Positions 17,749-26,238 are shown, counted from the stretch's first letter. The stretch is DNA of 27,630 nt from Candidatus Fraserbacteria bacterium (GCA_037442925.1 JBBIPG010000031.1:1-27630), one strand, 5' to 3'. Translations and numbers: made by a program. Notes: generated from the sequence alone by a model not told the origin.

Positions 17749-17777
17749 TTGACAAGGGCCCTACTCTCATGCATAAT
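17749..17777 (+). promoter_or_regulatory. Sigma70 promoter TTGACA-N17-CATAAT for aroF-tyrA
   Basis: Near-consensus hexamers with a 17-bp spacer. Confidence 0.8.
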
Positions 17778-17806
17778 GGGCCCACTCTTCAGATGAGGTG
17801 ATGATA

Positions 17807-17935
17807 ATGCTCAAAGGTGATCGGCTTTGGCTGCAACAGGCAGTCACAGCTTGCAGGACGGCAGTTCTCTCCTCTTTCCACCTCCTCTCCTCTCGCTTCC
17901 CCTGGCGAGTTTGCCGCTACCCCTATAGCGCCTGA
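17807..17935 (+). CDS. 0-frame leader ORF of aroF (42 aa, MLKGDRLWL...)
   Basis: SD GAGGTG at 17795-17800, ATG 17807, stop TGA 17933-17935; codons 7-8 are CTT TGG. Confidence 0.7.
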
Positions 17936-18812
17936 GGCGCTTCCAACCAAGTCCAATTCCGCACCTGCTTCACTGGAAACTCAGAGTAGCGAACAGTTTA
18001 GACTAGCCAGCCGTCGGTCCCGTCCGCAGGACACGATTGTTGATGTGAAGGGCGTGAAAATCGGCGGCGAGGAGCTGGTGATCATGGCCGGGCCGTGCTC
18101 CGTGGAGAACGAGTACCAGATCCATACGATTGCGCAGCTGGTGGCCGAAGCAGGAGCCCGAATCCTGAGGGGTGGCGCTTTTAAGCCCCGCACGTCACCG
18201 TACAGCTTCCAAGGCTTGGGCCAAGAGGGGTTGAAACTGCTACGAACTGCTGCGGATGAGAACGATCTGCTGGTCATCACAGAGGTCTTAGATGTCCGCC
18301 AGATCGATCTGGTCGCCCAGTATGCCGACATCCTGCAGATTGGTGCGCGCAACATGCAGAACTTCGCACTGCTCAAAGAAGTGGGACTTACCCATCATGC
18401 TGTGCTCCTCAAACGAGGGATGGCTGCTACGGTGAACGAGCTTCTGATGGCTGCAGAATACGTGTTGTCCGCAGGGAACTCGCGAGTGATCCTCTGCGAA
18501 CGGGGGATCCGAACCTTCACGGACTACACACGCTTCACGTTGGATGTCGCAGCCGTTCCCGTTGTGAAGAGGCTCTCGCATCTACCCATCATTATCGATC
18601 CCAGCCACCCCGCAGGGCGACATGAGAACGTCATTCCGTTAGCACTGGCCGGGATTGCTGCCGGCGCAGACGGGTTGATCGTCGAAGTCCATCACAATCC
18701 CGAATGTGCTTTGAGCGATGGCCCTCAGGCGCTTCGACCCGAACAGTTCAGGCAACTCGTCGGAAAAGTTTCCGCCATGGCAGCCGTCTTGGGTAAGAAG
18801 TTTCTCGCGTAA
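17807..18812 (+). CDS. aroF: DAHP synthase type I-beta; predicted 334 aa via a +1 frameshift at 17825-17830 (ORF track start GTG 17817)
   Basis: [37 protein letters not shown] and DPSH. GTG 17817 has no properly spaced SD, and the next in-frame GTG lies inside the core. Confidence 0.9.
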
Positions 18813-18817
18813 ATGCT

Positions 18818-19720
18818 ATGGCTCGACCACGCACGCCTAGAAGAGTTACGATCGTAGGTGTGGGTCTGATGGGCGGCTCTCTGGGCATGGCCATCCGGCG
18901 ATGCTGCAAGGGCGTCGAAGTGATCGGCGTCGATCGGGAAGAAGCGACTCTCCAGCAGGCCCAAGAGCGCGGGGCCATCGATTGGGGTACACTGGATCTC
19001 GAGCAGGGCGTGGCCGAGGCGAATCTGGTCTTCTTGGCTACACCGATTCGGGTTATTTTGGAACTCTTGCCCGCTCTAGCAGATGGTATCGCGGAGAAAG
19101 CGATCGTCTCCGATCTGGGTTCGACAAAACTGCAAATCTGCCTTGCCGCAAAGAAGCTACTGCCCGAAAACTTCGTGGGCGGACATCCGATGACCGGCTC
19201 CGAGCGTCAAGGCATCGAAGCAGCGGACCCTTTCTTGTTCGAGAACGCGGTCTATCTCCTCACTCCGCTACGCCCTGGCGATGATAAGGCTGAGAGACTC
19301 GCGGCCTTTTTGGAGCAACTGGGGTGTTCGATAGTCTGCATAAGCCCGCAGCGGCATGATCGCTTGGTAGCCCACGTCAGCCATCTACCACAGCTTTTGG
19401 CAGTGGCTCTGGCAGACTTCATTGGGGAAAGGGCCGAAGCCGACAGCCTATACAAAGAATTGGCTGCCGGAGGCTTGCGAGACATGACCCGCATTGCGGC
19501 CTCGCCCTATGAGATCTGGCAGGACATTCTGATCACAAACCGGGATGAGATCGAGCAAGCCATGCAGGCATTGTTGTCACGGCTGCAAGACAGGTGTTGC
19601 ATCAGAGAAGAAGACGCTTGGCGCGAGAGGTTCGCGCGGGCAGCGCGCTTTCGCGCCGCGTTTCCTCGGCAATCGAAGAGCTTGGTTGACGCGTCCCACA
19701 CCGAGGGATATAATCAGTGA
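18818..19720 (+). CDS. tyrA: Prephenate/arogenate dehydrogenase
   Basis: VGVGLMGGS, SDLGSTK, GGHPMTGSE, HD...VSHLP and RDMTRIA. Confidence 0.93.
   Translation: MARPRTPRRVTIVGVGLMGGSLGMAIRRCCKGVEVIGVDREEATLQQAQERGAIDWGTLDLEQGVAEANLVFLATPIRVILELLPALADGIAEKAIVSDLGSTKLQICLAAKKLLPENFVGGHPMTGSERQGIEAADPFLFENAVYLLTPLRPGDDKAERLAAFLEQLGCSIVCISPQRHDRLVAHVSHLPQLLAVALADFIGERAEADSLYKELAAGGLRDMTRIAASPYEIWQDILITNRDEIEQAMQALLSRLQDRCCIREEDAWRERFARAARFRAAFPRQSKSLVDASHTEGYNQ
19686..19714 (+). promoter_or_regulatory. Sigma70 promoter TTGACG-N17-TATAAT inside the tyrA 3' end, driving the trp operon
   Basis: Hexamers at 19686-19691 and 19709-19714. Confidence 0.8.
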
Positions 19721-19748
19721 ACTCGTACACACCGGAGGGTGATTCAAC

Positions 19749-19817
19749 ATGAGAAGATTCTCAAGAAGACTCTCAAAGGGTGAGTATCTTTGGCTCTCCT
19801 CGTTCCGTTGTATCTAG
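19749..19817 (+). CDS. 0-frame leader ORF of trpE (22 aa, MRRFSRRLSKGEYLWLSSFRCI)
   Basis: SD GGAGGGT at 19734-19740, ATG 19749, TAG 19815-19817; codons 14-15 are CTT TGG. Confidence 0.7.
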   Translation: MRRFSRRLSKGEYLWLSSFRCI

Positions 19818-21256
19818 GCACAACCCCGCCTCAGGCCGTCCTTCCTCCCGTCGTGATGTGCCCATAGCTCGTTCCAAAAGCCATCTCATCATACGAGAGA
19901 TCCCCGCTGTGGAGCCCTTTGCGCTCTATCGCCGCTTGCGGAATCGTACTGGAGTCAGCTTTCTCTTAGAGAGTGCTCCGGGACCAAAACGCTTGGCACA
20001 GTTCACCTTCATCGGGTTTGACCCTGTGAGGGTCTTTGCTCTACAGGATGGAGTGCTGTTCGTCGACGGGAAGCGCAGAGACAGGCTTTGGTCGTCCGGT
20101 CAATTTCCTACGAGACACGCTTGCACAGCATCAGCCTTTCACTAGGGCAGAAGTCCCTTTTCTTAGCAGATTCAGCGGTGGCCTCGTTGGCTACTTTAGC
20201 TATGACTTCGTACACCATCTAGAGAGGCTGCCGGAGCCTACTCCACCACGCTCCTCCTTTCCGGACTTCGAGCTGGGCCTCTATCTCGATGGCATCGTCT
20301 ATGATCATCACCGCCATCGCGCCCATTATTTTTCTCACAGTGAGGATCGATCCCACGTTGTGATGGAAGCTCTAGCTGATCCCACTCCCTCTCCGGCCCG
20401 TCTTCGCGTCGATCGCTTTGAGTCCGACATAACTCAGCAAGAGTTCTGCGCGAGTGTCGCGCACGCCAAAGCGCACATCCAGTCCGGTGATATCTATCAA
20501 GTTGTGCTCTCCAAACAGCTAACGGCACCCTATGACGGCGACCTGCTCTTGTTTTATGAGCTGCTCCGTCGGATCAACCCATCACCCTATATGTTCCATT
20601 TGGATTTCGGCCCGCGCGTGATCTCCGGCAGTAGCCCAGAGATGCTCGTCTCCGTCCAAGGGAATCTCATCACGACCTATCCCATTGCGGGGACGCGCCC
20701 ACTCGGACGGAACGCCAAAGAGCGGAAGCGCTATGCTCGCGAACTCTTGAGGGACGAAAAAGAGCGTGCGGAACACGCGATGCTGGTCGATCTGGCCAGA
20801 AATGACATCGGGCGCGTGGCAGAATACGGCAGTGTACGTGTGCCCGAATACATGCGGGTGGAGTCTTTCAGCCATGTTCAGCATCTGGTCTCTCGCGTTG
20901 ACGGGTGCTTGCGAGCAGGTCTGGACGCCATCGATGCGTTGGCTGCGCTCTTCCCTGCAGGAACGGTGACAGGAGCACCCAAACCGCGTGCCATGGAGAT
21001 CGTCAACAATCTGGAACGGAGTCCCCGGGGCCCCTACGCCGGTGCTGTGGGCTATCTGTCGCTCAACGGCCATCTGGACACAGCCATCACGATTCGTACG
21101 CTCTTTGCAGATGCTCACGCCCAAAGACTCTTCCTGCGCGCCGGTGCCGGCATCGTCTGCGATTCCGTTCCGAAAAGAGAGTGGGAGGAAACCGAACGCA
21201 AACTCGAAGCCATGAAAGTCGCCCTAAAGGGAGCTGCCTCATGCGCGTTCTCGTGA
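19749..21256 (+). CDS. trpE: Anthranilate synthase component I in three successive +1 frames (predicted 501 aa with shifts at 19788-19793 and 20086-20091)
   Basis: FLLESAPG..FTFIGFDP lies in ORF 19780-20145. FSGGLVGYFSYD, GDIYQVVLS, NPSPY, SSPE, PIAGT, EHAMLVDLARND and PAGTVTGAPK lie in ORF 20036-21256. Confidence 0.88.
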
Positions 21257-21831
21257 TCGACAACTACGACTCATTCACCTACAACCTGGTGCAATACTTC
21301 GGGGAGCTGGGCTGCCAACTACGCGTCTTTCGAAACGATGAGCGAGACCTTGAGGAGATCAAAGCCCTCAAGCCCGAGCGGATCGTACTGTCCCCCGGAC
21401 CCGGCAACCCGCAAAACGATCGGGATTTCGGCATCTGCTCCTCCATTCTACGGGAGATCTCCCCATGCATTCCTACGCTGGGGGTGTGCCTGGGACATCA
21501 GGGAATTGCGGCGGTCTTCGGGGGACGGGTGATTCAGGCAAAGACGATTCGGCATGGCAAGACTTCGCGTATCTACCATGACGGCCAAGGGATCTTCCAA
21601 GGGGTCCCCAACGGCTTCTTGGCAGCGCGTTACCACTCGCTGGCAATCGATCGTGCCTCGCTGCCATCGGTTTTGGAAATCAGCGCCGAATCCGAAGACG
21701 GCGAGATCATGGGAGTGAGGCATAAAGACTATCCCATTGAAGGAGTGCAGTTTCACCCCGAATCGATTCTGACCGAGCACGGGAAGGCGATTCTGGCAAA
21801 TCTTCTGACGCACGGAGGTAGCGGGTCATGA
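21241..21831 (+). CDS. trpG: Anthranilate synthase component II (glutamine amidotransferase)
   Basis: IDNYDSFTYNL, SPGPG, GVCLGHQ and QFHPES; start overlaps the trpE end. Confidence 0.95.
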   Translation: MRVLVIDNYDSFTYNLVQYFGELGCQLRVFRNDERDLEEIKALKPERIVLSPGPGNPQNDRDFGICSSILREISPCIPTLGVCLGHQGIAAVFGGRVIQAKTIRHGKTSRIYHDGQGIFQGVPNGFLAARYHSLAIDRASLPSVLEISAESEDGEIMGVRHKDYPIEGVQFHPESILTEHGKAILANLLTHGGSGS

Positions 21832-22868
21832 TGCAGGAAGCACTCGCCTTGCTGGCAGAAGGACAGGATCTCAGTGCTGAGATCACAAGAGGAGCCATGA
21901 CGGAGTTGATGAGCGGCTGCTGCAGCGAGGCACAAGTGGGTGCTTTCCTGATGGGGCTGCGCATCAAGGGCACGACCGTCGAGGAGGCCATCTCCTTTGC
22001 CGAGACGTTGCGAAGCCTGTGCCTGAGAATCAGACCCCGCTTGAAAGGGGATGCGCTACTCACAGATGTGTGTGGCACCGGCGGCGCACCCGTAAAGACG
22101 TTTAACGTCTCGACCGTGAGCGCCTTTGTGGTAGCCGGAGCCGGTGTGCCCGTCGCCAAGCACGGCAACCGTGGCGTGACAAGCCCGTGCGGCAGCGCCG
22201 ATGTCCTGGAGGCTCTGGGGGGCAATTTGAACGTCTCACCCCAAGCGGTGGAACGAAGCATTGAAGAGATCGGAATCGGCTTCCTGTTCGCTCCCAATTT
22301 TCACCCGGCGCTGAAGTATGTGGCCAAGAGCCGCAAGGAACTGGGCATCCGCACGGTCTTCAACATGCTGGGGCCGTTGGTCAATCCGGCGGACCCTCAA
22401 GCTCAGCTCCTCGGGGTCTTCTCACAGGAGCTGGTGGGGATGTTCCCTAAAGTCCTGCGGGCTTTGGGCGTCCAGCGCGCCTTGGTGGTCTACGGTCTCG
22501 ACGGCGTGGATGAGGTCTCGATCCTGGGCAAGACGCTCATCGCAGAACTCAAAGATGGGACCATCCGGCACTACGAGCTCAATGCCCAAAGCCTGGGCTT
22601 TCGGCTCGCTAAGCCGGAAGAGATCGAGAGTCTTCCTGCGGCGCAGAGCGCGGAAGTCACAAGACAAATACTATCAGGGAAGCTGCGAGATGCCCGCTAT
22701 GAAATGGTGCTACTGAACGCCGGGGCGGCCATCTACGTGAGTGGGAAAGCGGCATCGCTCGAAGAGGGCATCGCGCAAGCAGAGGAGAGCATCAAAAGCG
22801 GCAGTGCCTTAGAGAAACTGAGGCTCCTCGTGCAATCACACCATGGATCAGTTGGACCGGATCATTGA
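21828..22868 (+). CDS. trpD: Anthranilate phosphoribosyltransferase
   Basis: DVCGTGG, FNVST, AKHGNR and RTVFNMLGPL. Confidence 0.96.
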   Translation: MMQEALALLAEGQDLSAEITRGAMTELMSGCCSEAQVGAFLMGLRIKGTTVEEAISFAETLRSLCLRIRPRLKGDALLTDVCGTGGAPVKTFNVSTVSAFVVAGAGVPVAKHGNRGVTSPCGSADVLEALGGNLNVSPQAVERSIEEIGIGFLFAPNFHPALKYVAKSRKELGIRTVFNMLGPLVNPADPQAQLLGVFSQELVGMFPKVLRALGVQRALVVYGLDGVDEVSILGKTLIAELKDGTIRHYELNAQSLGFRLAKPEEIESLPAAQSAEVTRQILSGKLRDARYEMVLLNAGAAIYVSGKAASLEEGIAQAEESIKSGSALEKLRLLVQSHHGSVGPDH

Positions 22869-23616
22869 GTCTGTTCGGGCCACCCTTCGAAGTGGGTATT
22901 ACCGGACAGAGAAGTTCCTGCGGGTGGAGCGCAAGTCATTTGTGGAGAGCATTCGCACCTGCTCGGCCACCCCCATTGTTGCGGAGATTAAGCCGGCTTC
23001 CCCCTCTCTGTCTCGGGGTCGGCTGCTTTCACCAAAGAGGATCGATGAGATCGTGGGCGTATTTGCCGAGGCCGGAGTCGTGGGCATATCAGTCCTGACC
23101 GAGCCGGTGCACTTCCGTGGGTCTTTAGAGAATTTACGATCAGCCAGCGCGAGCGGACTCCCCACGCTGATGAAGGATTTCGTGATCGATCCGGTTCAGC
23201 TAGAGGCGTGTGCGGCGTATGGGGGTAGCGCTGTCCTGCTCATAGTGAGTCTCTTCCGACGCGGCTACAGCACAGTGAATCTACCCGAAATGATCGCTCT
23301 TGCCCACAAGAAGAATCTAGAAGTAGTACTCGAAGTCAACTCGCTTAAAGAGTTCCAACTGGCAAAGAAGACGAAAACGGACATGATCGGCATCAACAAT
23401 CGCAATCTGGGCACACTCCAAGTCAACTTGGAGACGACCCCCCGCATCCTGCATCGGGTCAAAAAAGACCGCATCGTGTGGAGCATGAGCGGGATTGAGA
23501 GCCCCCAAGACCTTCGCCGACTCAAACAGGCCGGAGCCGATGCGTTCTTAATCGGGACTTCCTTGATGCAGGCTCCGGATCTGGTAGGCAGATTAACTGA
23601 GCTGCTAGAGGCGTAA
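22843..23616 (+). CDS. trpC: Indole-3-glycerol phosphate synthase
   Basis: AEIKPASPS, SVLTEP..F.G, LMKDF and GINNRNL. Confidence 0.94.
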   Translation: MDQLDRIIESVRATLRSGYYRTEKFLRVERKSFVESIRTCSATPIVAEIKPASPSLSRGRLLSPKRIDEIVGVFAEAGVVGISVLTEPVHFRGSLENLRSASASGLPTLMKDFVIDPVQLEACAAYGGSAVLLIVSLFRRGYSTVNLPEMIALAHKKNLEVVLEVNSLKEFQLAKKTKTDMIGINNRNLGTLQVNLETTPRILHRVKKDRIVWSMSGIESPQDLRRLKQAGADAFLIGTSLMQAPDLVGRLTELLEA

Positions 23617-23635
23617 TTTCGAGGAGGACATCACG

Positions 23636-24301
23636 ATGTGTAAAGTCAAACTGTGCGGCAATCGCAGCTTGCAGGACGTTGAGATCACACGGAATGCCGA
23701 CGCGCAGGGCTTTGTGGTGGAGACGCCCCGATCACCGCGAAATATCCCCCTGAGCATAGCGCAAGTGTTAATACAAGCCGTGCCACTCTTCAATACGTCT
23801 GTCGTAGTGACGGCCATCAGAGAACCTCAAAAGCTGGCTGATGTTGTCTCTAAGACGCAACCTGATGCACTTCAGATCCATAGCGAATTGGAGCCTGACC
23901 AGATCGAGCGTATTCACGAGGTGCTCCCAGCTCACGTCAAGCTATACAGCCTGCTCAGTGTGCTGGGTCCGCAAGAGGACTTGATCGAGAAAGCCAAAGC
24001 ACTGGCCAGCATCTCTCTGGATGCGATCATTCTAGACACAAACATCGGCGGTCAAAGCGGTGGCACCGGCGTGCCACATGACTGGCAGCTCAGTCGGGTG
24101 ATCCGCGATGCGATCTACCCGTTTCCCGTGATTCTCGCCGGTGGACTTACTCCCGGCAATGTCGCAGAGGCCATAGAGATCGTCAGGCCCTATGCGATCG
24201 ATGTAGCCAGCGGTGTGGAAGAGGCTGGTGCGAAGTCGCCTCGCCTTGTGCAAACCTTGCTCCGTCAAGTGAGGAACTATGCAGAACCACGAGTGGAGTA
24301 A
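23636..24301 (+). CDS. trpF: Phosphoribosylanthranilate isomerase
   Basis: [25 protein letters not shown] and DVASGVE. Confidence 0.94.
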
Positions 24302-25448
24302 GCTGGGGAGAGATGGAAGATTTGCGCAGTTTGGTGGCCGCTTCGTGCCCGAGATTCTCCGGTCGGCTCTCGTGGAGTTGGAGAGGGCATATCAAGAAGC
24401 CAAACAAGACGACGTCTTTCACAGGCAACTGCGCTGGTATCAAGAGCACTATGGCGGAAGGCCATCGCCGCTCTACCATGCCAAGCGGTTGACGTCCCAT
24501 GTGGGAGGGGCTCAGATATTCATTAAGCGAGAGGATCTCATTCACGGTGGTGCGCATAAGTTCAACAACGTGATGGGGCAGGCGCTGCTCGCCCGGCGCA
24601 TGGGGAAGCAGCGGATCATCGCAGAGACGGGTGCAGGGCAACACGGCGTGGCAACGGCTATGGCCGGGGCGGTGCTGGGCATCCCTGTTGAAGTTTATAT
24701 GGGCAGAGTTGACGTGGAGCGTCAAAAGATGAACGTCTTTCGCATGAAGCTTATGGGAGCTCTCGTGCACGAAGTGACGAGCGGCAGCGCCACATTAAAA
24801 GACGCGATCAACGAAGCACTGCGAGATTGGGCCACCAATGTGCCCACGACGTATTATCTCTTGGGCTCCGTGGTCGGACCGCACCCGTATCCTGTGATGG
24901 TGCGCGACTTTCAGCGTGTGATCGGCGATGAGATCAAGGGCCAGTTGCTACGAGAGACTAAGAGACTCCCCGATCTACTCGTCGCGTGTGTGGGCGGCGG
25001 CAGCAACGCGATGGGCACCTTTTACCCCTTCGTTCAGCACAAAGATGTGGAGCTTCTGGGGGTGGAGGCAAAGGGGGCAGCGTCGCTGGTGAGCGGTCGC
25101 CCCGGCGTGCTCCACGGTGCCAAGACGTATGTATTGCAAGATGAGTGCGGGCAGATCCAAGAGACTCACAGCATTGCTGCCGGACTCGATTATCCCGCTG
25201 TCGGCCCCGAACACGCACTCCTTAAGGATCTCAAACGAGTAGAATACATCGCCGTAGGAGACGATGAAGCTCTAGAAGGTTTTCGATTGCTTGCCAAGCT
25301 AGAGGGCATCATCTCGGCACTGGAGCCGGCGCATGCGGTGTGGGCTGCCGTGCAGCGTGCCAAGAAGTTGCGTGCCGATCAGATTGTCGTAGTCACGTTG
25401 TCCGGCCGCGGGGATAAAGACTTAGAGACGGTGATGCGCTATGAGTAG
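24279..25448 (+). CDS. trpB: Tryptophan synthase beta subunit
   Basis: [32 protein letters not shown] and SIAAGLDYP. Confidence 0.97.
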
Positions 25449-26238
25449 AATCGCACAACGCTTTCATGATCTATCGGCTGAAGAAGAAGGTGCTTTGATT
25501 TGCTATCTCATGGCCGGGGACCCTGACACGTATAAGACGCTCGACTACGCGTTCGCTCTGGAAGAGGGGGGTGCAGATGTAATCGAGCTGGGAATTCCCT
25601 TTTCTGATCCGGTAGCGGACGGCCCCACCATCCAAGCAGCGGGAGTGCGTGCGTTACAAGCCGGCACGACGCCCCAACGAGTCTTTGAACTCTCTTCGCG
25701 GCTGCGCAAGCGCTCCAACATTCCCATTGTGCTTATGACCTATTACAATCCCATCTTCGTGATGGGCGAAGAGACATTTATCAAAGCCTCCAAAGACGCG
25801 GGTGCAGACGGGGTGATTGTGCCGGATCTGCCGATGGAAGAGTCGAGACACTTTATCGAAGCCGCCCGCCGGCATGGCATCGACACGATCTTCTTCGCTA
25901 CGCCGGAGACCGACGACGTGCGAGTGGGGCAGATTGCTGCTGCCACAACGGGTTTTCTATATATCGTGGCACGATATGGCATCACCGGAGCTAAGGAAGA
26001 GTTAGCAGACTTGACCACCACCCTCATTCAGAGGGTCCATCCTCTGGTTGTGCCGCTGAATCTGCCCATCGCCGTGGGCTTCGGGCTGTCGAACCCGGAA
26101 CAGATCAAAGGCGTTATAGGCGCAGGGGCCAACGGAGCGATTGTAGGCAGTGCCATCGTCGAGAGAATTGCCAGCGGCATCTCCTTGGAGGTTCTCGCGG
26201 GGTTTGTTCGAGAGCTCAAGCAGGGCACAAAGCTCTAG
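25441..26238 (+). CDS. trpA: Tryptophan synthase alpha subunit
   Basis: [27 protein letters not shown] and GAIVGSA. Confidence 0.97.

What the first reader, a model, noticed from the sequence alone, without database searches (positions are those of the whole stretch)
17795..21256. Candidate tryptophan-sensing programmed +1 ribosomal frameshift system (CTT-TGG) gating aroF and trpE
Seen: three reading-frame discontinuities occur in the two committed-step enzymes. All are +1 and all contain an in-frame CTT TGG: aroF 17825-17830 (AAA GGT GAT CGG CTT TGG C), trpE leader 19788-19793 (AAG GGT GAG TAT CTT TGG C) and internal trpE 20086-20091 (GAC AGG CTT TGG T). Slipping CTT to TTT enters the enzyme frame each time. 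Known: prfB autoregulation uses AGG GGG TAT CTT TGA C, where tRNA-Leu slips CUU to UUU while the A site is slowly decoded, and hungry codons promote +1 shifts. Inference: the slow codon here is UGG, so enzyme is made mainly when Trp-tRNA is scarce; otherwise ribosomes stop in frame 0. I saw no U-tailed attenuator, T-box or TRAP repeats. I know of no trp/aro operon reported to be controlled this way, but could not search the literature.
Basis: partly seen in the sequence, partly recalled or inferred. Interest (0 to 1): 0.97.

Follow-up and report, generated by a model that had tools for sequence, protein, structure and literature searches.

The report
Tryptophan-sensing frameshift switch on trp genes
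The tryptophan-pathway genes here sit one base out of frame behind short leader ORFs carrying this lineage's own release-factor-2 frameshift signal with the stop codon UGA changed to the tryptophan codon UGG, so the enzymes are probably made only when charged tryptophan tRNA runs low.

Summary
The hexamer alone is common. What matters is a 16-nt cassette, GGTGAT-NNN-CTT-TGG-C. It lies in a short ORF with a promoter, a strong Shine-Dalgarno site and an ATG, and the enzyme is fused in the +1 frame.

- **Spread:** I found 43 such leaders in this unnamed phylum and one archaeon. All precede tryptophan genes: trpE, one aroF paralogue, trpS (in genomes where no trpE was found) and trpB2.
- **Frames:** In 33 fused loci the +1 frame has 0 stops over 1,237 linker codons. 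The other two frames have 70 and 46.
- **Link to prfB:** 21 of 22 prfB genes of the lineage carry the same cassette with TGA instead of TGG. In one genome the two cassettes match over 19 bases apart from that A/G.
- **Internal trpE shift:** It recurs at the same codon in a second genus and a metagenome fragment. Reading it through restores ungapped collinearity with intact TrpE.

Best reading: a prfB-type +1 frameshift gated by a hungry Trp codon. There is no expression or protein evidence. The main rival is initiation at an invariant in-frame GTG. I found no prior report.

The parts
17749..17777 (+). aroF-leader promoter, TTGACA-17-CATAAT
   Evidence: 11 of 12 consensus matches.
17795..17809 (+). 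Leader Shine-Dalgarno site GAGGTGAT and start ATG at 17807 (an alternative ATG lies at 17801 in the same frame)
   Evidence: Sequence; SD match of 8 nt in the leader table (L027).
17816..17831 (+). aroF frameshift cassette GGTGAT-CGG-CTT-TGG-C
   Evidence: Same cassette as the own prfB with TGA in place of TGG.
17807..17935 (+). 0-frame aroF leader ORF. It runs 34 codons past TGG, ends ..[13 protein letters not shown], and its stop TGA at 17933-17935 sits in the loop of the hairpin AGCGCC/GGCGCT (17927-17941)
   Evidence: Related aromatic-rich leaders occur in G027, G003, G007, G002 and G009.
17829..18812 (+). aroF (class I-beta DAHP synthase without the ferredoxin-like domain) read in the +1 frame from the slip
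   Evidence: Pfam DAHP_synth_1 E 1.2e-80; NCBIfam NF006421. No stop in 87 codons from the slip to GPCS, and no start codon before codon 72.
18818..19720 (+). tyrA (prephenate dehydrogenase), between the two regulated units
   Evidence: Pfam PDH_N and PDH_C.
19686..19714 (+). trp-operon promoter, TTGACG-17-TATAAT
   Evidence: 11 of 12 consensus matches.
19734..19817 (+). trpE leader: SD GGAGGGTGAT, ATG at 19749, 0-frame ORF MRRFSRRLSKGEYLWLSSFRCI, stop TAG at 19815-19817
19779..19794 (+). trpE leader frameshift cassette GGTGAG-TAT-CTT-TGG-C
   Evidence: The same variant occurs in G006.
19792..20088 (+). trpE segment 1 (linker and N-terminal domain), in the +1 frame relative to the leader
   Evidence: Pfam Anth_synt_I_N profile positions 3-57.
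20077..20092 (+). Internal trpE shift site AGAGAC-AGG-CTT-TGG-T. The segment-1 frame stops at TAG 20143-20145
   Evidence: Conserved as CGAGAC-CGG-CTT-TGG-T in G006 and as ..RRDRLWSPT in P0003.
20090..21256 (+). trpE segment 2, a further +1 frame
   Evidence: Pfam Chorismate_bind E 3e-92. Ungapped BLASTP across the junction.
21241..26238 (+). trpG, trpD, trpC, trpF, trpB and trpA, downstream in the same operon
   Evidence: Pfam GATase, Glycos_transf_3, IGPS, PRAI, PALP and Trp_syntA.

Best explanation
Each unit is a translational switch built from the lineage's release-factor-2 (prfB) frameshift cassette, with the stop codon UGA replaced by the tryptophan codon UGG.

Proposed sequence of events:
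1. Ribosomes load at a strong SD-ATG and translate a short leader.
2. They reach GGUGAU-NNN-CUU-UGG-C, with peptidyl-tRNA-Leu on CUU and UGG in the A site.
3. If Trp-tRNA(Trp) is plentiful, UGG is read. The ribosome stays in frame and stops a few codons later, so no enzyme is made.
4. If charged tRNA-Trp is scarce, the A site stays empty. The SD-like hexamer pairs with the 16S 3' end three bases upstream, tRNA-Leu re-pairs from CUU to UUU, and the ribosome continues in the +1 frame.

In this window the +1 frame is the enzyme itself: DAHP synthase (aroF), and anthranilate synthase (trpE) heading the trpEGDCFBA operon. trpE needs a second shift of the same kind inside the gene, which should sharpen the response.

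What is shown: the anatomy, the frames, the conservation, the tryptophan-only set of controlled genes, and the near-identity to the prfB cassette.

What is inferred: that shifting happens, that it depends on Trp-tRNA supply, and the roles of the SD-like hexamer and of the second site.
For: 1. **Conserved architecture.** Promoter, SD, ATG, 2-22 codons, cassette in the ATG frame, gene in +1. This holds upstream of trpE in 14 of 15 relatives found by protein search, not by motif. In the 15th, G035, the leader precedes trpB2-trpE. In total there are 41 ATG-started leaders plus 2 started by TTG or GTG.

2. **Tryptophan-only targets.** trpE 21, aroF 2, trpS 13, trpB2 6, trpB2-trpE operon 1. Identities come from Pfam and NCBIfam. 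Further strict-pattern hits fetched and inspected lay in unrelated sequence without a leader.
   - trpS carries the cassette in 16 of 16 f5 genomes and 4 of 4 f3 genomes that have a trpS match. Most of these yielded no trpE match.
   - In genomes with trpE, including this one, trpS has an ordinary start.

3. **The +1 frame is open exactly from the cassette.** In 33 fused loci there are 1,237 codons from the slip to a conserved core motif. Stops in frames 0, +1 and +2 number 70, 0 and 46. In 12 of 19 trpE loci no ATG, GTG or TTG exists in that stretch.

4. **The lineage's prfB uses the same cassette.** 21 of 22 prfB loci carry it with TGA. The own genome has GGGGATCGCCTTTGAC and G006 has GGTGATCGCCTTTGAC. 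In G036 the prfB site ATAGGTGATCGGGTTTGAC and the trpE leader ATAGGTGATCGGGTTTGGC differ only at A/G.

5. **The features that define the prfB motif are present.** These are an SD-like hexamer 3 nt before CTTT and a C after the A-site codon (PMC12421855, passages). The own 16S ends ..GGATCACCTCCTTTCT, which is complementary to GGTGATCC. The base after TGG is C in 29 of 41 leaders.

6. **The constraint is on the RNA, not on either protein frame.** Codon -3 is GGT in 39 of 41 and codon -2 is GAT in 28 of 41. The E-site codon is CGN in 32 of 41, using all four third bases. That is silent in the leader frame but gives different residues (Gly, Asp, Ala or Val) in the enzyme frame.

7. **The internal trpE shift is conserved.** It lies at the same codon in G000, G006 (69% identical, another genus) and P0003. 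Reading CTTT as one step from ATG 19749 gives 501 residues with no stop and exactly 2 steps. The product aligns ungapped across the junction with intact G009 TrpE at 60% identity.

8. **Not an assembly error.** An independent assembly of the source run reproduces all three sites without indels.

9. **The +1 leader peptides are under selection.** Upstream of unfused trpB2 they vary only at synonymous third positions, so that frame is translated.
Against: - There is no RNA, ribosome-profiling or protein evidence. All genomes are metagenome bins and the relatives are not independent.
- A GTG in the enzyme frame lies inside every one of the 43 cassettes, so direct initiation there cannot be excluded from sequence.
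- 12 of 13 trpS loci and 7 of 19 trpE loci also have an in-frame start codon further downstream.
- In-frame CTT TGG is not avoided genome-wide: 135 observed against 112 expected. There is no excess of other internal CTT TGG shift candidates: 19 of 2,681 sites, within the range of the control hexamers.
- The internal trpE site has only a degenerate SD-like hexamer (AGAGAC or CGAGAC), so its efficiency is unexplained.
- GGTGAT lies 3 nt from CTT. That is the short end of the spacings seen between GGTGAT and real ATG starts in this genome, which peak at 5 nt. It is not outside that range.
- Only 2 of 30 aroF loci carry the cassette. The aroF 0-frame also encodes a conserved aromatic-rich leader, so aroF may also be under conventional leader-peptide control.
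- The 11 GTT TGG variants re-pair less well on UUU.
Confidence: 0.8

Rival explanations
1. The enzymes start directly at the GTG inside the cassette (17817, 19780). The ATG mini-ORF is an overlapping upstream ORF or an ordinary Trp-codon leader peptide, and no frameshift occurs at the two leader sites.
For: GTG in the enzyme frame is invariant in all 43 cassettes, including the variants CGTGAT and AGTGAA. ORF callers find these starts, and a database protein is called that way (P0003 begins MSTFG). Short +1 ORFs upstream of trpB2 look like leader peptides with W or WW codons.
Against: - No SD lies at a working distance from the GTG. The strong SD sits next to the ATG, tens of bases upstream of the GTG.
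- The GTG lies inside the SD-like hexamer itself.
- Ribosomes loaded at the ATG would run over the GTG.
- This reading cannot explain the internal trpE shift.
- It cannot explain why the leader ATG is in frame with TGG in 41 of 41 leaders, nor why the 0-frame stop follows closely.
- It cannot explain the near-identity with prfB cassettes, where shifting is the accepted mechanism.
- It cannot explain why third-base variation of the CGN codon is silent in the leader frame only.
- It would require three unrelated enzymes to share an M-I/V-x-F-G tag followed by unconserved linkers.
Confidence: 0.08
2. The +1 shift happens but at a fixed efficiency. It sets a low expression level, or is a tolerated relic, and does not sense tryptophan.
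For: No data on regulation exist. Ty1-type CUU_AGG_C sites shift at a set high rate (PMC5009743, passages). In-frame CTT TGG is tolerated elsewhere in the genome.
Against: - The A-site codon is TGG at all 15 trpE leaders found by protein search, not by motif.
- Every controlled gene belongs to tryptophan supply: trpE, aroF, trpS, trpB2.
- The cassette sits on trpS in the genomes where no trpE was found.
- A set-ratio device gives no reason for these links.
Confidence: 0.07
3. The conserved 16 nt is an RNA or DNA site for a regulator (a protein operator or small hairpin), and the reading frames around it are incidental.
For: The constraint is at nucleotide level in both frames. Some leaders can form a small local hairpin around the site.
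Against: - No hairpin is shared across leaders, and there is no Rfam match.
- This reading does not explain the in-frame ATG with its SD, the early 0-frame stop, the +1 frame that stays open over 1,237 codons, or the internal trpE shift.
- The same sequence in prfB is a known recoding signal.
Confidence: 0.03
4. The frame breaks are sequencing or assembly errors, or trpE and aroF are decaying pseudogenes.
For: The genome is a 86-contig metagenome bin.
Against: - The same breaks occur at the same codons in other genera and in independent assemblies.
- The genes are otherwise intact, with 60-69% identity to relatives and no other stops.
Confidence: 0.01

Closest known systems
prfB (release factor 2) autoregulatory +1 programmed frameshift
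   Same: It shares the SD-like hexamer 3 nt upstream, the CTT-T slippery run, a slowly decoded A-site codon, a C after it, and a product in the +1 frame (features from PMC12421855 passages, and PMC5009743 passages). In this lineage the prfB cassette is the same sequence except for the A-site codon. For trpS the feedback logic is also the same: the product restores decoding of the sensed codon.
   Different: The A-site codon is the sense codon UGG, not the stop UGA. The sensed quantity would therefore be charged tRNA-Trp rather than RF2. The 0-frame ends at a separate stop 1-34 codons later. The cassette sits in a dedicated leader in front of unrelated enzymes, and once inside a gene. It is sometimes not fused to the gene but followed by a short +1 ORF.
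Yeast Ty1 / ABP140 +1 frameshift at CUU_AGG_C
   Same: Both use the heptamer CUU-sense codon-C, with peptidyl-tRNA-Leu slipping to UUN while a 'hungry' sense codon waits in the A site (PMC5009743 passages).
   Different: The yeast sites are eukaryotic. The hunger comes from a permanently rare tRNA, giving a set ratio. There is no SD-like stimulator and no link to the supply of the amino acid concerned.
Antizyme +1 frameshift (polyamine sensor)
   Same: Frameshift efficiency is used as a metabolite sensor in a feedback loop on a biosynthetic pathway (PMC5009743 passages).
   Different: The antizyme A site is a stop codon. The sensor is polyamine acting on the ribosome and nascent chain, and the product inhibits the pathway rather than being its enzyme.
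Classical trp leader-peptide attenuation and T-box tRNA-Trp sensing (from established knowledge, recalled, not from a call)
   Same: All three read out Trp-tRNA charging through a leader in front of trp genes. The T-box regulon in Firmicutes likewise covers trpS and trp or aro genes.
   Different: This window's leaders have a single Trp codon, no terminator or antiterminator and no T-run, and no T-box match. The output would be decided by reading frame, not by transcription termination.
Laboratory use of the RF2 shift site with sense codons to measure aminoacyl-tRNA selection rates (Curran and Yarus, late 1980s; recalled, paper not seen)
   Same: Replacing UGA by a sense codon makes frameshifting report how fast that codon is decoded. 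That is what this natural cassette appears to exploit.
   Different: That system is an engineered reporter in E. coli, not a natural regulator.

Membership tests
prfB-type +1 frameshift cassette | Slippery CTT followed by T (CTTT) | tested here: met
   All three window sites have it. The P-site codon is CTT in 30 and GTT in 11 of 41 leaders. prfB of G036 also uses GTT.
prfB-type +1 frameshift cassette | SD-like hexamer 3 nt upstream of the slippery codon, complementary to the 16S 3' end | tested here: met
   GGTGAT (aroF) and GGTGAG (trpE leader) lie 3 nt before CTT. The own 16S 3' end is GGATCACCTCC, and the own prfB has GGGGAT at the same place. The internal trpE site has only AGAGAC, which is inconclusive for that site.
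prfB-type +1 frameshift cassette | In-frame premature stop codon (TGA) in the A site | tested here: not met
   The A-site codon is TGG at all three sites and at all 15 trpE leaders found by protein search; all leaders in the table also have it, though that search required it.
prfB-type +1 frameshift cassette | C immediately after the A-site codon | tested here: met
   C at 17831 and 19794, T at 20092. C in 29 of 41 leaders.
prfB-type +1 frameshift cassette | Functional product encoded in the +1 frame downstream | tested here: met
   0 stops in +1 over 1,237 codons in 33 loci.
prfB-type +1 frameshift cassette | The gene encodes RF2 | tested here: not met
   The genes are DAHP synthase and anthranilate synthase. 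prfB itself lies elsewhere, at C26.
prfB-type +1 frameshift cassette | Frameshifting actually occurs and responds to the decoding factor | not testable with these tools
   No RNA run was listed and there are no proteomic data.
trp leader-peptide transcription attenuator | Tandem Trp codons plus alternative terminator and antiterminator hairpins with a U-tail | tested here: not met
   The trpE leader has one Trp codon. The terminator scan found no site in either leader, and neither leader has a T-run of 5 or more.
T-box riboswitch | Match to the T-box RNA family | tested here: not met
   No Rfam family reached its gathering score in the whole window.
TRAP-binding leader | Series of (G/U)AG triplets with 2-3 nt spacers | tested here: not met
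   The longest runs are 2 (aroF leader) and 1 (trpE leader).

The most novel reading that the evidence does not exclude
This would be the first natural regulatory frameshift driven by a hungry sense codon. A modular leader, one base away from the prfB recoding signal, measures Trp-tRNA charging on the ribosome. It switches on a whole tryptophan regulon across a bacterial phylum: biosynthesis (trpE operon, aroF), salvage (trpB2) and charging (trpS, in genomes where no trpE was found). One copy is also seen in an archaeon. A second in-gene copy in trpE would act as a multiplier. If so, frameshift-based sensing of amino-acid supply is a fourth route beside attenuation, T-box and protein-mediated control. 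Cassettes for other amino acids may exist.
Probability: 0.72. Interest if true: 0.95.

Novelty: new variant of a known kind. Interest (0 to 1): 0.92.

Why it matters
Amino-acid operons are known to be controlled by repressors, leader-peptide attenuation, T-box RNAs, TRAP and riboswitches. A frameshift that reads tRNA charging directly would add a mechanism.

It would also answer a question left open in the field's main review. Speaking of hungry-codon frameshifting that makes useful trans-frame products under starvation, that review states 'no examples are known' (PMC5009743, passage read).

The finding suggests how such a device could evolve: one A-to-G change in a copied prfB cassette.

It gives a short, portable part, about 16 nt plus a leader, that could be tested as a sensor of tRNA-Trp charging.

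It also bears on annotation. Gene callers start these genes at the internal GTG or split trpE in two, so the frameshift is missed in current annotation.

Tried and rejected
- **Known RNA families:** the Rfam scan of the window gave no family.
- **RNA evidence:** no RNA holder was listed.
- **Other runs:** runs X2 and X3 (other studies) hold only parts. Their contig on the aroF leader begins at 17826 and does not bridge the site, and none covers 19515-20482. They are not informative.
- **Metagenome search for the internal site:** an exact-pattern scan found 0 matches. The protein-based scan found 19 relatives and none has the internal shift.
- **Other internal CTT/GTT TGG shifts in the own genome:** 19 candidates among 2,681 sites, no more than the control hexamers gave (4-22).
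- **Avoidance of in-frame CTT TGG:** none.
- **A stimulatory RNA structure shared by the leaders:** single-sequence folds of 20 leaders showed no common hairpin. I did not run a covariation analysis.
- **A frameshift-suppressor tRNA:** 48 tRNAs found, and no odd tRNA was flagged among those printed.
- **Reading every in-frame CTTT as a 4-base step:** this works for trpE but breaks aroF at a further CTT-T at codon 23. CTTT alone is therefore not the signal.
- **Extra strict-pattern hits in the own genome (C2, C39):** judged chance. The C2 +1 frame stops after 6 codons.
- **Taxon name:** not obtained. The genome-contig scan returned only other phyla.


Full report
**Observation**

The window is the whole of contig C31 of a 2.07-Mb, 86-contig metagenome bin. 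On the + strand it carries aroF, tyrA and trpE-G-D-C-F-B-A.

The frames behave as described:
- aroF is open only from GTG 17817, in +1 relative to an SD-ATG mini-ORF.
- trpE is open from GTG 19780, in +1 relative to another SD-ATG mini-ORF.
- trpE is split again near 20086 into a further +1 frame.

Pfam places Anth_synt_I_N profile positions 3-57 before the internal break and 64-138 after it.

Both leaders follow near-consensus sigma-70 promoters: TTGACA-17-CATAAT at 17749-17777 and TTGACG-17-TATAAT at 19686-19714.

Logan's independent contigs of the probable source run cover all three sites at depth 15-18 with no gaps.

The hexamer itself is ordinary. It occurs 33 times in the window against 15.5 expected. 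In-frame CTT TGG occurs 135 times in 1,398 crude genes against 112 expected.

**What relatives show for trpE**

A protein search, blind to the motif, found trpE in 15 of 40 relatives. In 14 of these 15 the gene is preceded by the same arrangement:
- a promoter;
- a strong SD (mostly GAGGTGATC);
- an ATG;
- a few unconserved codons;
- then AAG GGT GAT CGN (C/G)TT TGG in the ATG frame.

TrpE runs on in +1 through an unconserved, low-complexity linker. The exception, G035, has the leader in front of trpB2, which precedes trpE.

G006 belongs to another genus and its TrpE is 69% identical. It has the window's own variant, GGT GAG TAT CTT TGG. It also has the same internal shift, GAC CGG CTT TGG TCG. 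A metagenome protein fragment, P0003 (69% identical), begins MSTFG and ends ..GERRDRLWSPT. That is the same out-of-frame read-on after the internal site.

In JGI and ENA metagenome contigs the 9 closest of 19 TrpE relatives carry the leader in the right frame. The 10 distant ones do not.

Of 80 TrpE loci from other phyla, one has a loose match. It is from the archaeon Ca. Wolframiiraptor. A TATA-like box is followed by ATG AAC GGT GGC TGT CTT TGG CTC TAA, with TrpE fused in +1.

**The set of controlled genes**

A pattern search over all 184 genomes of the phylum matched 106 of them. In the 35 genomes of the window's order I count 60 matches, against 8 for the reversed control pattern (my tally of its table).

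Fetching the matches separated two kinds. Some were chance hits inside unrelated genes, with no ATG leader. The others were true leaders, and every true leader precedes a tryptophan gene.

*trpS.* In families f5 and f3, where most genomes gave no trpE match, the leader is fused to trpS (tryptophan-tRNA ligase, NCBIfam TIGR00233).
- 14 f5 genomes were found by matching the coordinates.
- 2 more f5 genomes have variant cassettes. That makes 16 of the 16 f5 genomes with a trpS match.
- 4 of 4 f3 genomes have it.
- 13 of these leaders were inspected as sequence.

*Ordinary trpS starts.* The own trpS (C4) and the trpS genes of 8 other genomes from families f1, f2, f8, f9, f10 and f11 have ordinary SD-ATG starts.

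*trpB2.* In f9, f10 and G035 the leader precedes trpB2 (NF009057). It is not fused there. The +1 frame runs 23-60 codons and ends before the gene's own SD-ATG. These +1 peptides (..PEQLEPAW....HPPFK(D/Y)WWPP..) differ between genomes only at synonymous third positions, so that frame is translated.

*aroF.* Only 2 of 30 aroF loci carry the cassette. In the window's short-type aroF it is fused. In G009's it is unfused, and the +1 ORF ends 2 codons before aroF's SD-ATG.

**Frames and constraint**

The table of 41 ATG-started leaders is. Two more leaders start with TTG or GTG behind a strong SD.

In 33 fused loci there are 1,237 codons between the slip and a conserved core motif. They hold 0 stops in +1, against 70 in frame 0 and 46 in frame +2. 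In 12 of 19 trpE loci that stretch has no ATG, GTG or TTG at all.

The 0-frame stops 1-18 codons after TGG for trpE, 1-6 for trpS, 2-4 for trpB2 and 33-34 for aroF.

Within the cassette:
- codon -3 is GGT in 39 of 41;
- codon -2 is GAT in 28, GGT in 8 and GAG in 3;
- the E-site codon is CGN in 32 of 41, using all four third bases;
- the P-site codon is CTT in 30 and GTT in 11;
- the base after TGG is C in 29.

These counts partly reflect how I searched, because GTG and (C/G)TTTGG were required. They hold equally in the trpE set that was found by protein search.

Third-base freedom of CGN is silent in the leader frame and non-synonymous in the enzyme frame. The other synonymous positions are frozen in both frames. 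The constraint is therefore on the RNA and on leader-frame decoding, not on an enzyme N-terminus.

**The link to prfB**

RF2 genes were found in all 41 genomes searched. I inspected 22 prfB loci, and 21 carry a +1 shift site that is the same cassette with TGA.

| Genome | prfB shift site |
|---|---|
| own genome | GGGGATCGCCTTTGAC |
| G006 | GGTGATCGCCTTTGAC |
| G037, G040 | GGTGATCACCTTTGAC |
| G039 | GGTGATTACCTTTGAC |
| G024 | GGTGAGCGCCTTTGAC |

G036 uses GTT in both places. Its prfB site is ATAGGTGATCGGGTTTGAC and its trpE leader is ATAGGTGATCGGGTTTGGC. G038 showed no such site.

The published definition of the prfB motif comes from PMC12421855 (passages read) and PMC5009743 (passages). 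It comprises an SD-like hexamer, 3 nt, CTTT, a premature TGA and a conserved C. Every element is met here except the stop codon.

The own 16S rRNA ends ..GGATCACCTCCTTTCT, which is complementary to GGTGATCC. The 3-nt spacing between GGTGAT and CTT is at the short end of the spacings seen between GGTGAT and real ATG starts in this genome, which peak at 5 nt. This fits the prfB idea that the rRNA-mRNA duplex favours a forward slip, but the contrast is modest.

**Mechanism proposed**

See the best explanation above. tRNA-Leu(GAG) and tRNA-Leu(UAG), tRNA-Val(GAC, UAC and CAC) and a single tRNA-Trp(CCA) are present, and none of those printed is odd.

Reading CTTT as one step from ATG 19749 gives a 501-residue TrpE with exactly two such steps and no stop. 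It aligns at 60% identity and without a gap across the internal junction to the unbroken TrpE of G009.

The internal site shares GAY-MGG-CTT-TGG (peptide DRLW) with the leaders and with prfB (peptide GDRL-stop). It lacks a good SD-like hexamer, and how efficiently it shifts is open.

The logic is clearest for trpS. Low TrpRS means less charged tRNA-Trp, more shifting and more TrpRS. That is the same loop as RF2.

**Against, and rivals**

Nothing here shows expression. An in-frame GTG sits in every cassette, and many trpS loci have a further in-frame start. Direct initiation is therefore the main rival. I rate it low because the GTG has no SD, lies inside the SD-like element, and would be overrun by ribosomes from the strong ATG. 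Direct initiation also cannot explain the internal shift or the prfB identity.

A constitutive shift cannot be told apart from a regulated one by sequence. The Trp-only regulon and the TGG at every protein-search-found trpE leader are the argument for regulation.

aroF may also be under a conventional leader-peptide control. Its 0-frame leader ends ..[13 protein letters not shown] with the stop in a hairpin. Related aromatic-rich leaders precede aroF in relatives that have no cassette.

**Novelty**

Full-text searches found no report of frameshift control of trp genes or trpS.
- 'programmed ribosomal frameshifting' + 'anthranilate synthase': 0 papers.
- frameshifting + trpE + leader peptide + tryptophan: 3 papers, unrelated by title and abstract.
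- 'tryptophanyl-tRNA synthetase' + frameshifting + autoregulat: 1 paper, unrelated.
- 'programmed frameshift' + tryptophan + 'trp operon': 2 papers, unrelated.
- listings only.

The 2016 review says of starvation-specific products of hungry-codon frameshifting that 'no examples are known' (PMC5009743, passage). The 2025 survey of prfB frameshifting mentions tryptophan only in connection with UGA reassignment (PMC12421855, passages).

Subscription journals and supplements were not searched.

I file this as a new variant of a known kind. It works like prfB and is one base from it, but it fails the membership features 'stop codon in the A site' and 'gene is prfB'.

Noticed in passing
L049 (own genome C53, second aroF); L028, L030, L031, L033, L035, L038, L040, L048: The ferredoxin-like-domain aroF paralogue has its own SD-ATG. 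It is preceded by Phe-rich leader ORFs (..LFIFP(T/I)F.. or ..ASFFFGAPRP-stop) that end in or next to a GC-rich hairpin. This looks like a separate Phe-sensing leader-peptide control.
   Followed up: no
window 17831-17941; L034, L052, L054, L055, L056: The 0-frame of the aroF leader continues for 34 codons and ends in an aromatic-rich peptide (..[13 protein letters not shown]). Its stop TGA sits in the loop of the hairpin AGCGCC/GGCGCT. Related peptides (..YSWRYPSA..AYPFSYSA..YRLTYWLY) precede short-type aroF in relatives without the frameshift cassette. In the window this stretch is read in two frames.
   Followed up: partly
L130:1150-1206 (Ca. Wolframiiraptor allenii MAG, archaeon): An archaeal trpE is preceded by a TATA-like box and ATG AAC GGT GGC TGT CTT TGG CTC TAA, with TrpE fused in +1. 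It is the only loose match among 80 TrpE loci of other phyla. It is possibly the same device on a leaderless mRNA, or a transfer.
   Followed up: partly
L068, L072, L081 (f9); L103, L105, L126 (f10): In the unfused trpB2 leaders the short +1 ORF carries further conserved Trp codons near its end (WWPP, or ..EPAW plus 2 codons and a stop). This suggests a second Trp-sensing step after the shift.
   Followed up: no
60 nt downstream of TGG in 41 leaders, for example window 17870-17890 and 19840-19850: Anti-SD-like pyrimidine tracts (CCTCC, CACCTC, TCACCC) follow the cassette in 22 of 41 leaders. A control window 300 nt further on has them in 7. Their role is unknown: they may sequester the SD, or simply encode Pro/Ser-rich linker.
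   Followed up: partly
window 20020-20034: A terminator-like hairpin GACCCTGTGAGGGTC followed by TTTGCTCTAC lies inside trpE, about 50 nt upstream of the internal shift site.
   Followed up: no
G038 (complete 1.7-Mb genome, family f9), L250: Its prfB matched the RF2 model from position 2, and no CTT/GTT TGA shift site was found in the stretch fetched. It is the only one of 22 prfB loci without the cassette.
   Followed up: no
Genomes of genus g10 and family f3: 13 of 14 g10 genomes and 4 of 4 f3 genomes gave no trpE match although many are 90% or more complete. These are probably tryptophan auxotrophs, and they are the genomes where the cassette sits on trpS.
   Followed up: partly
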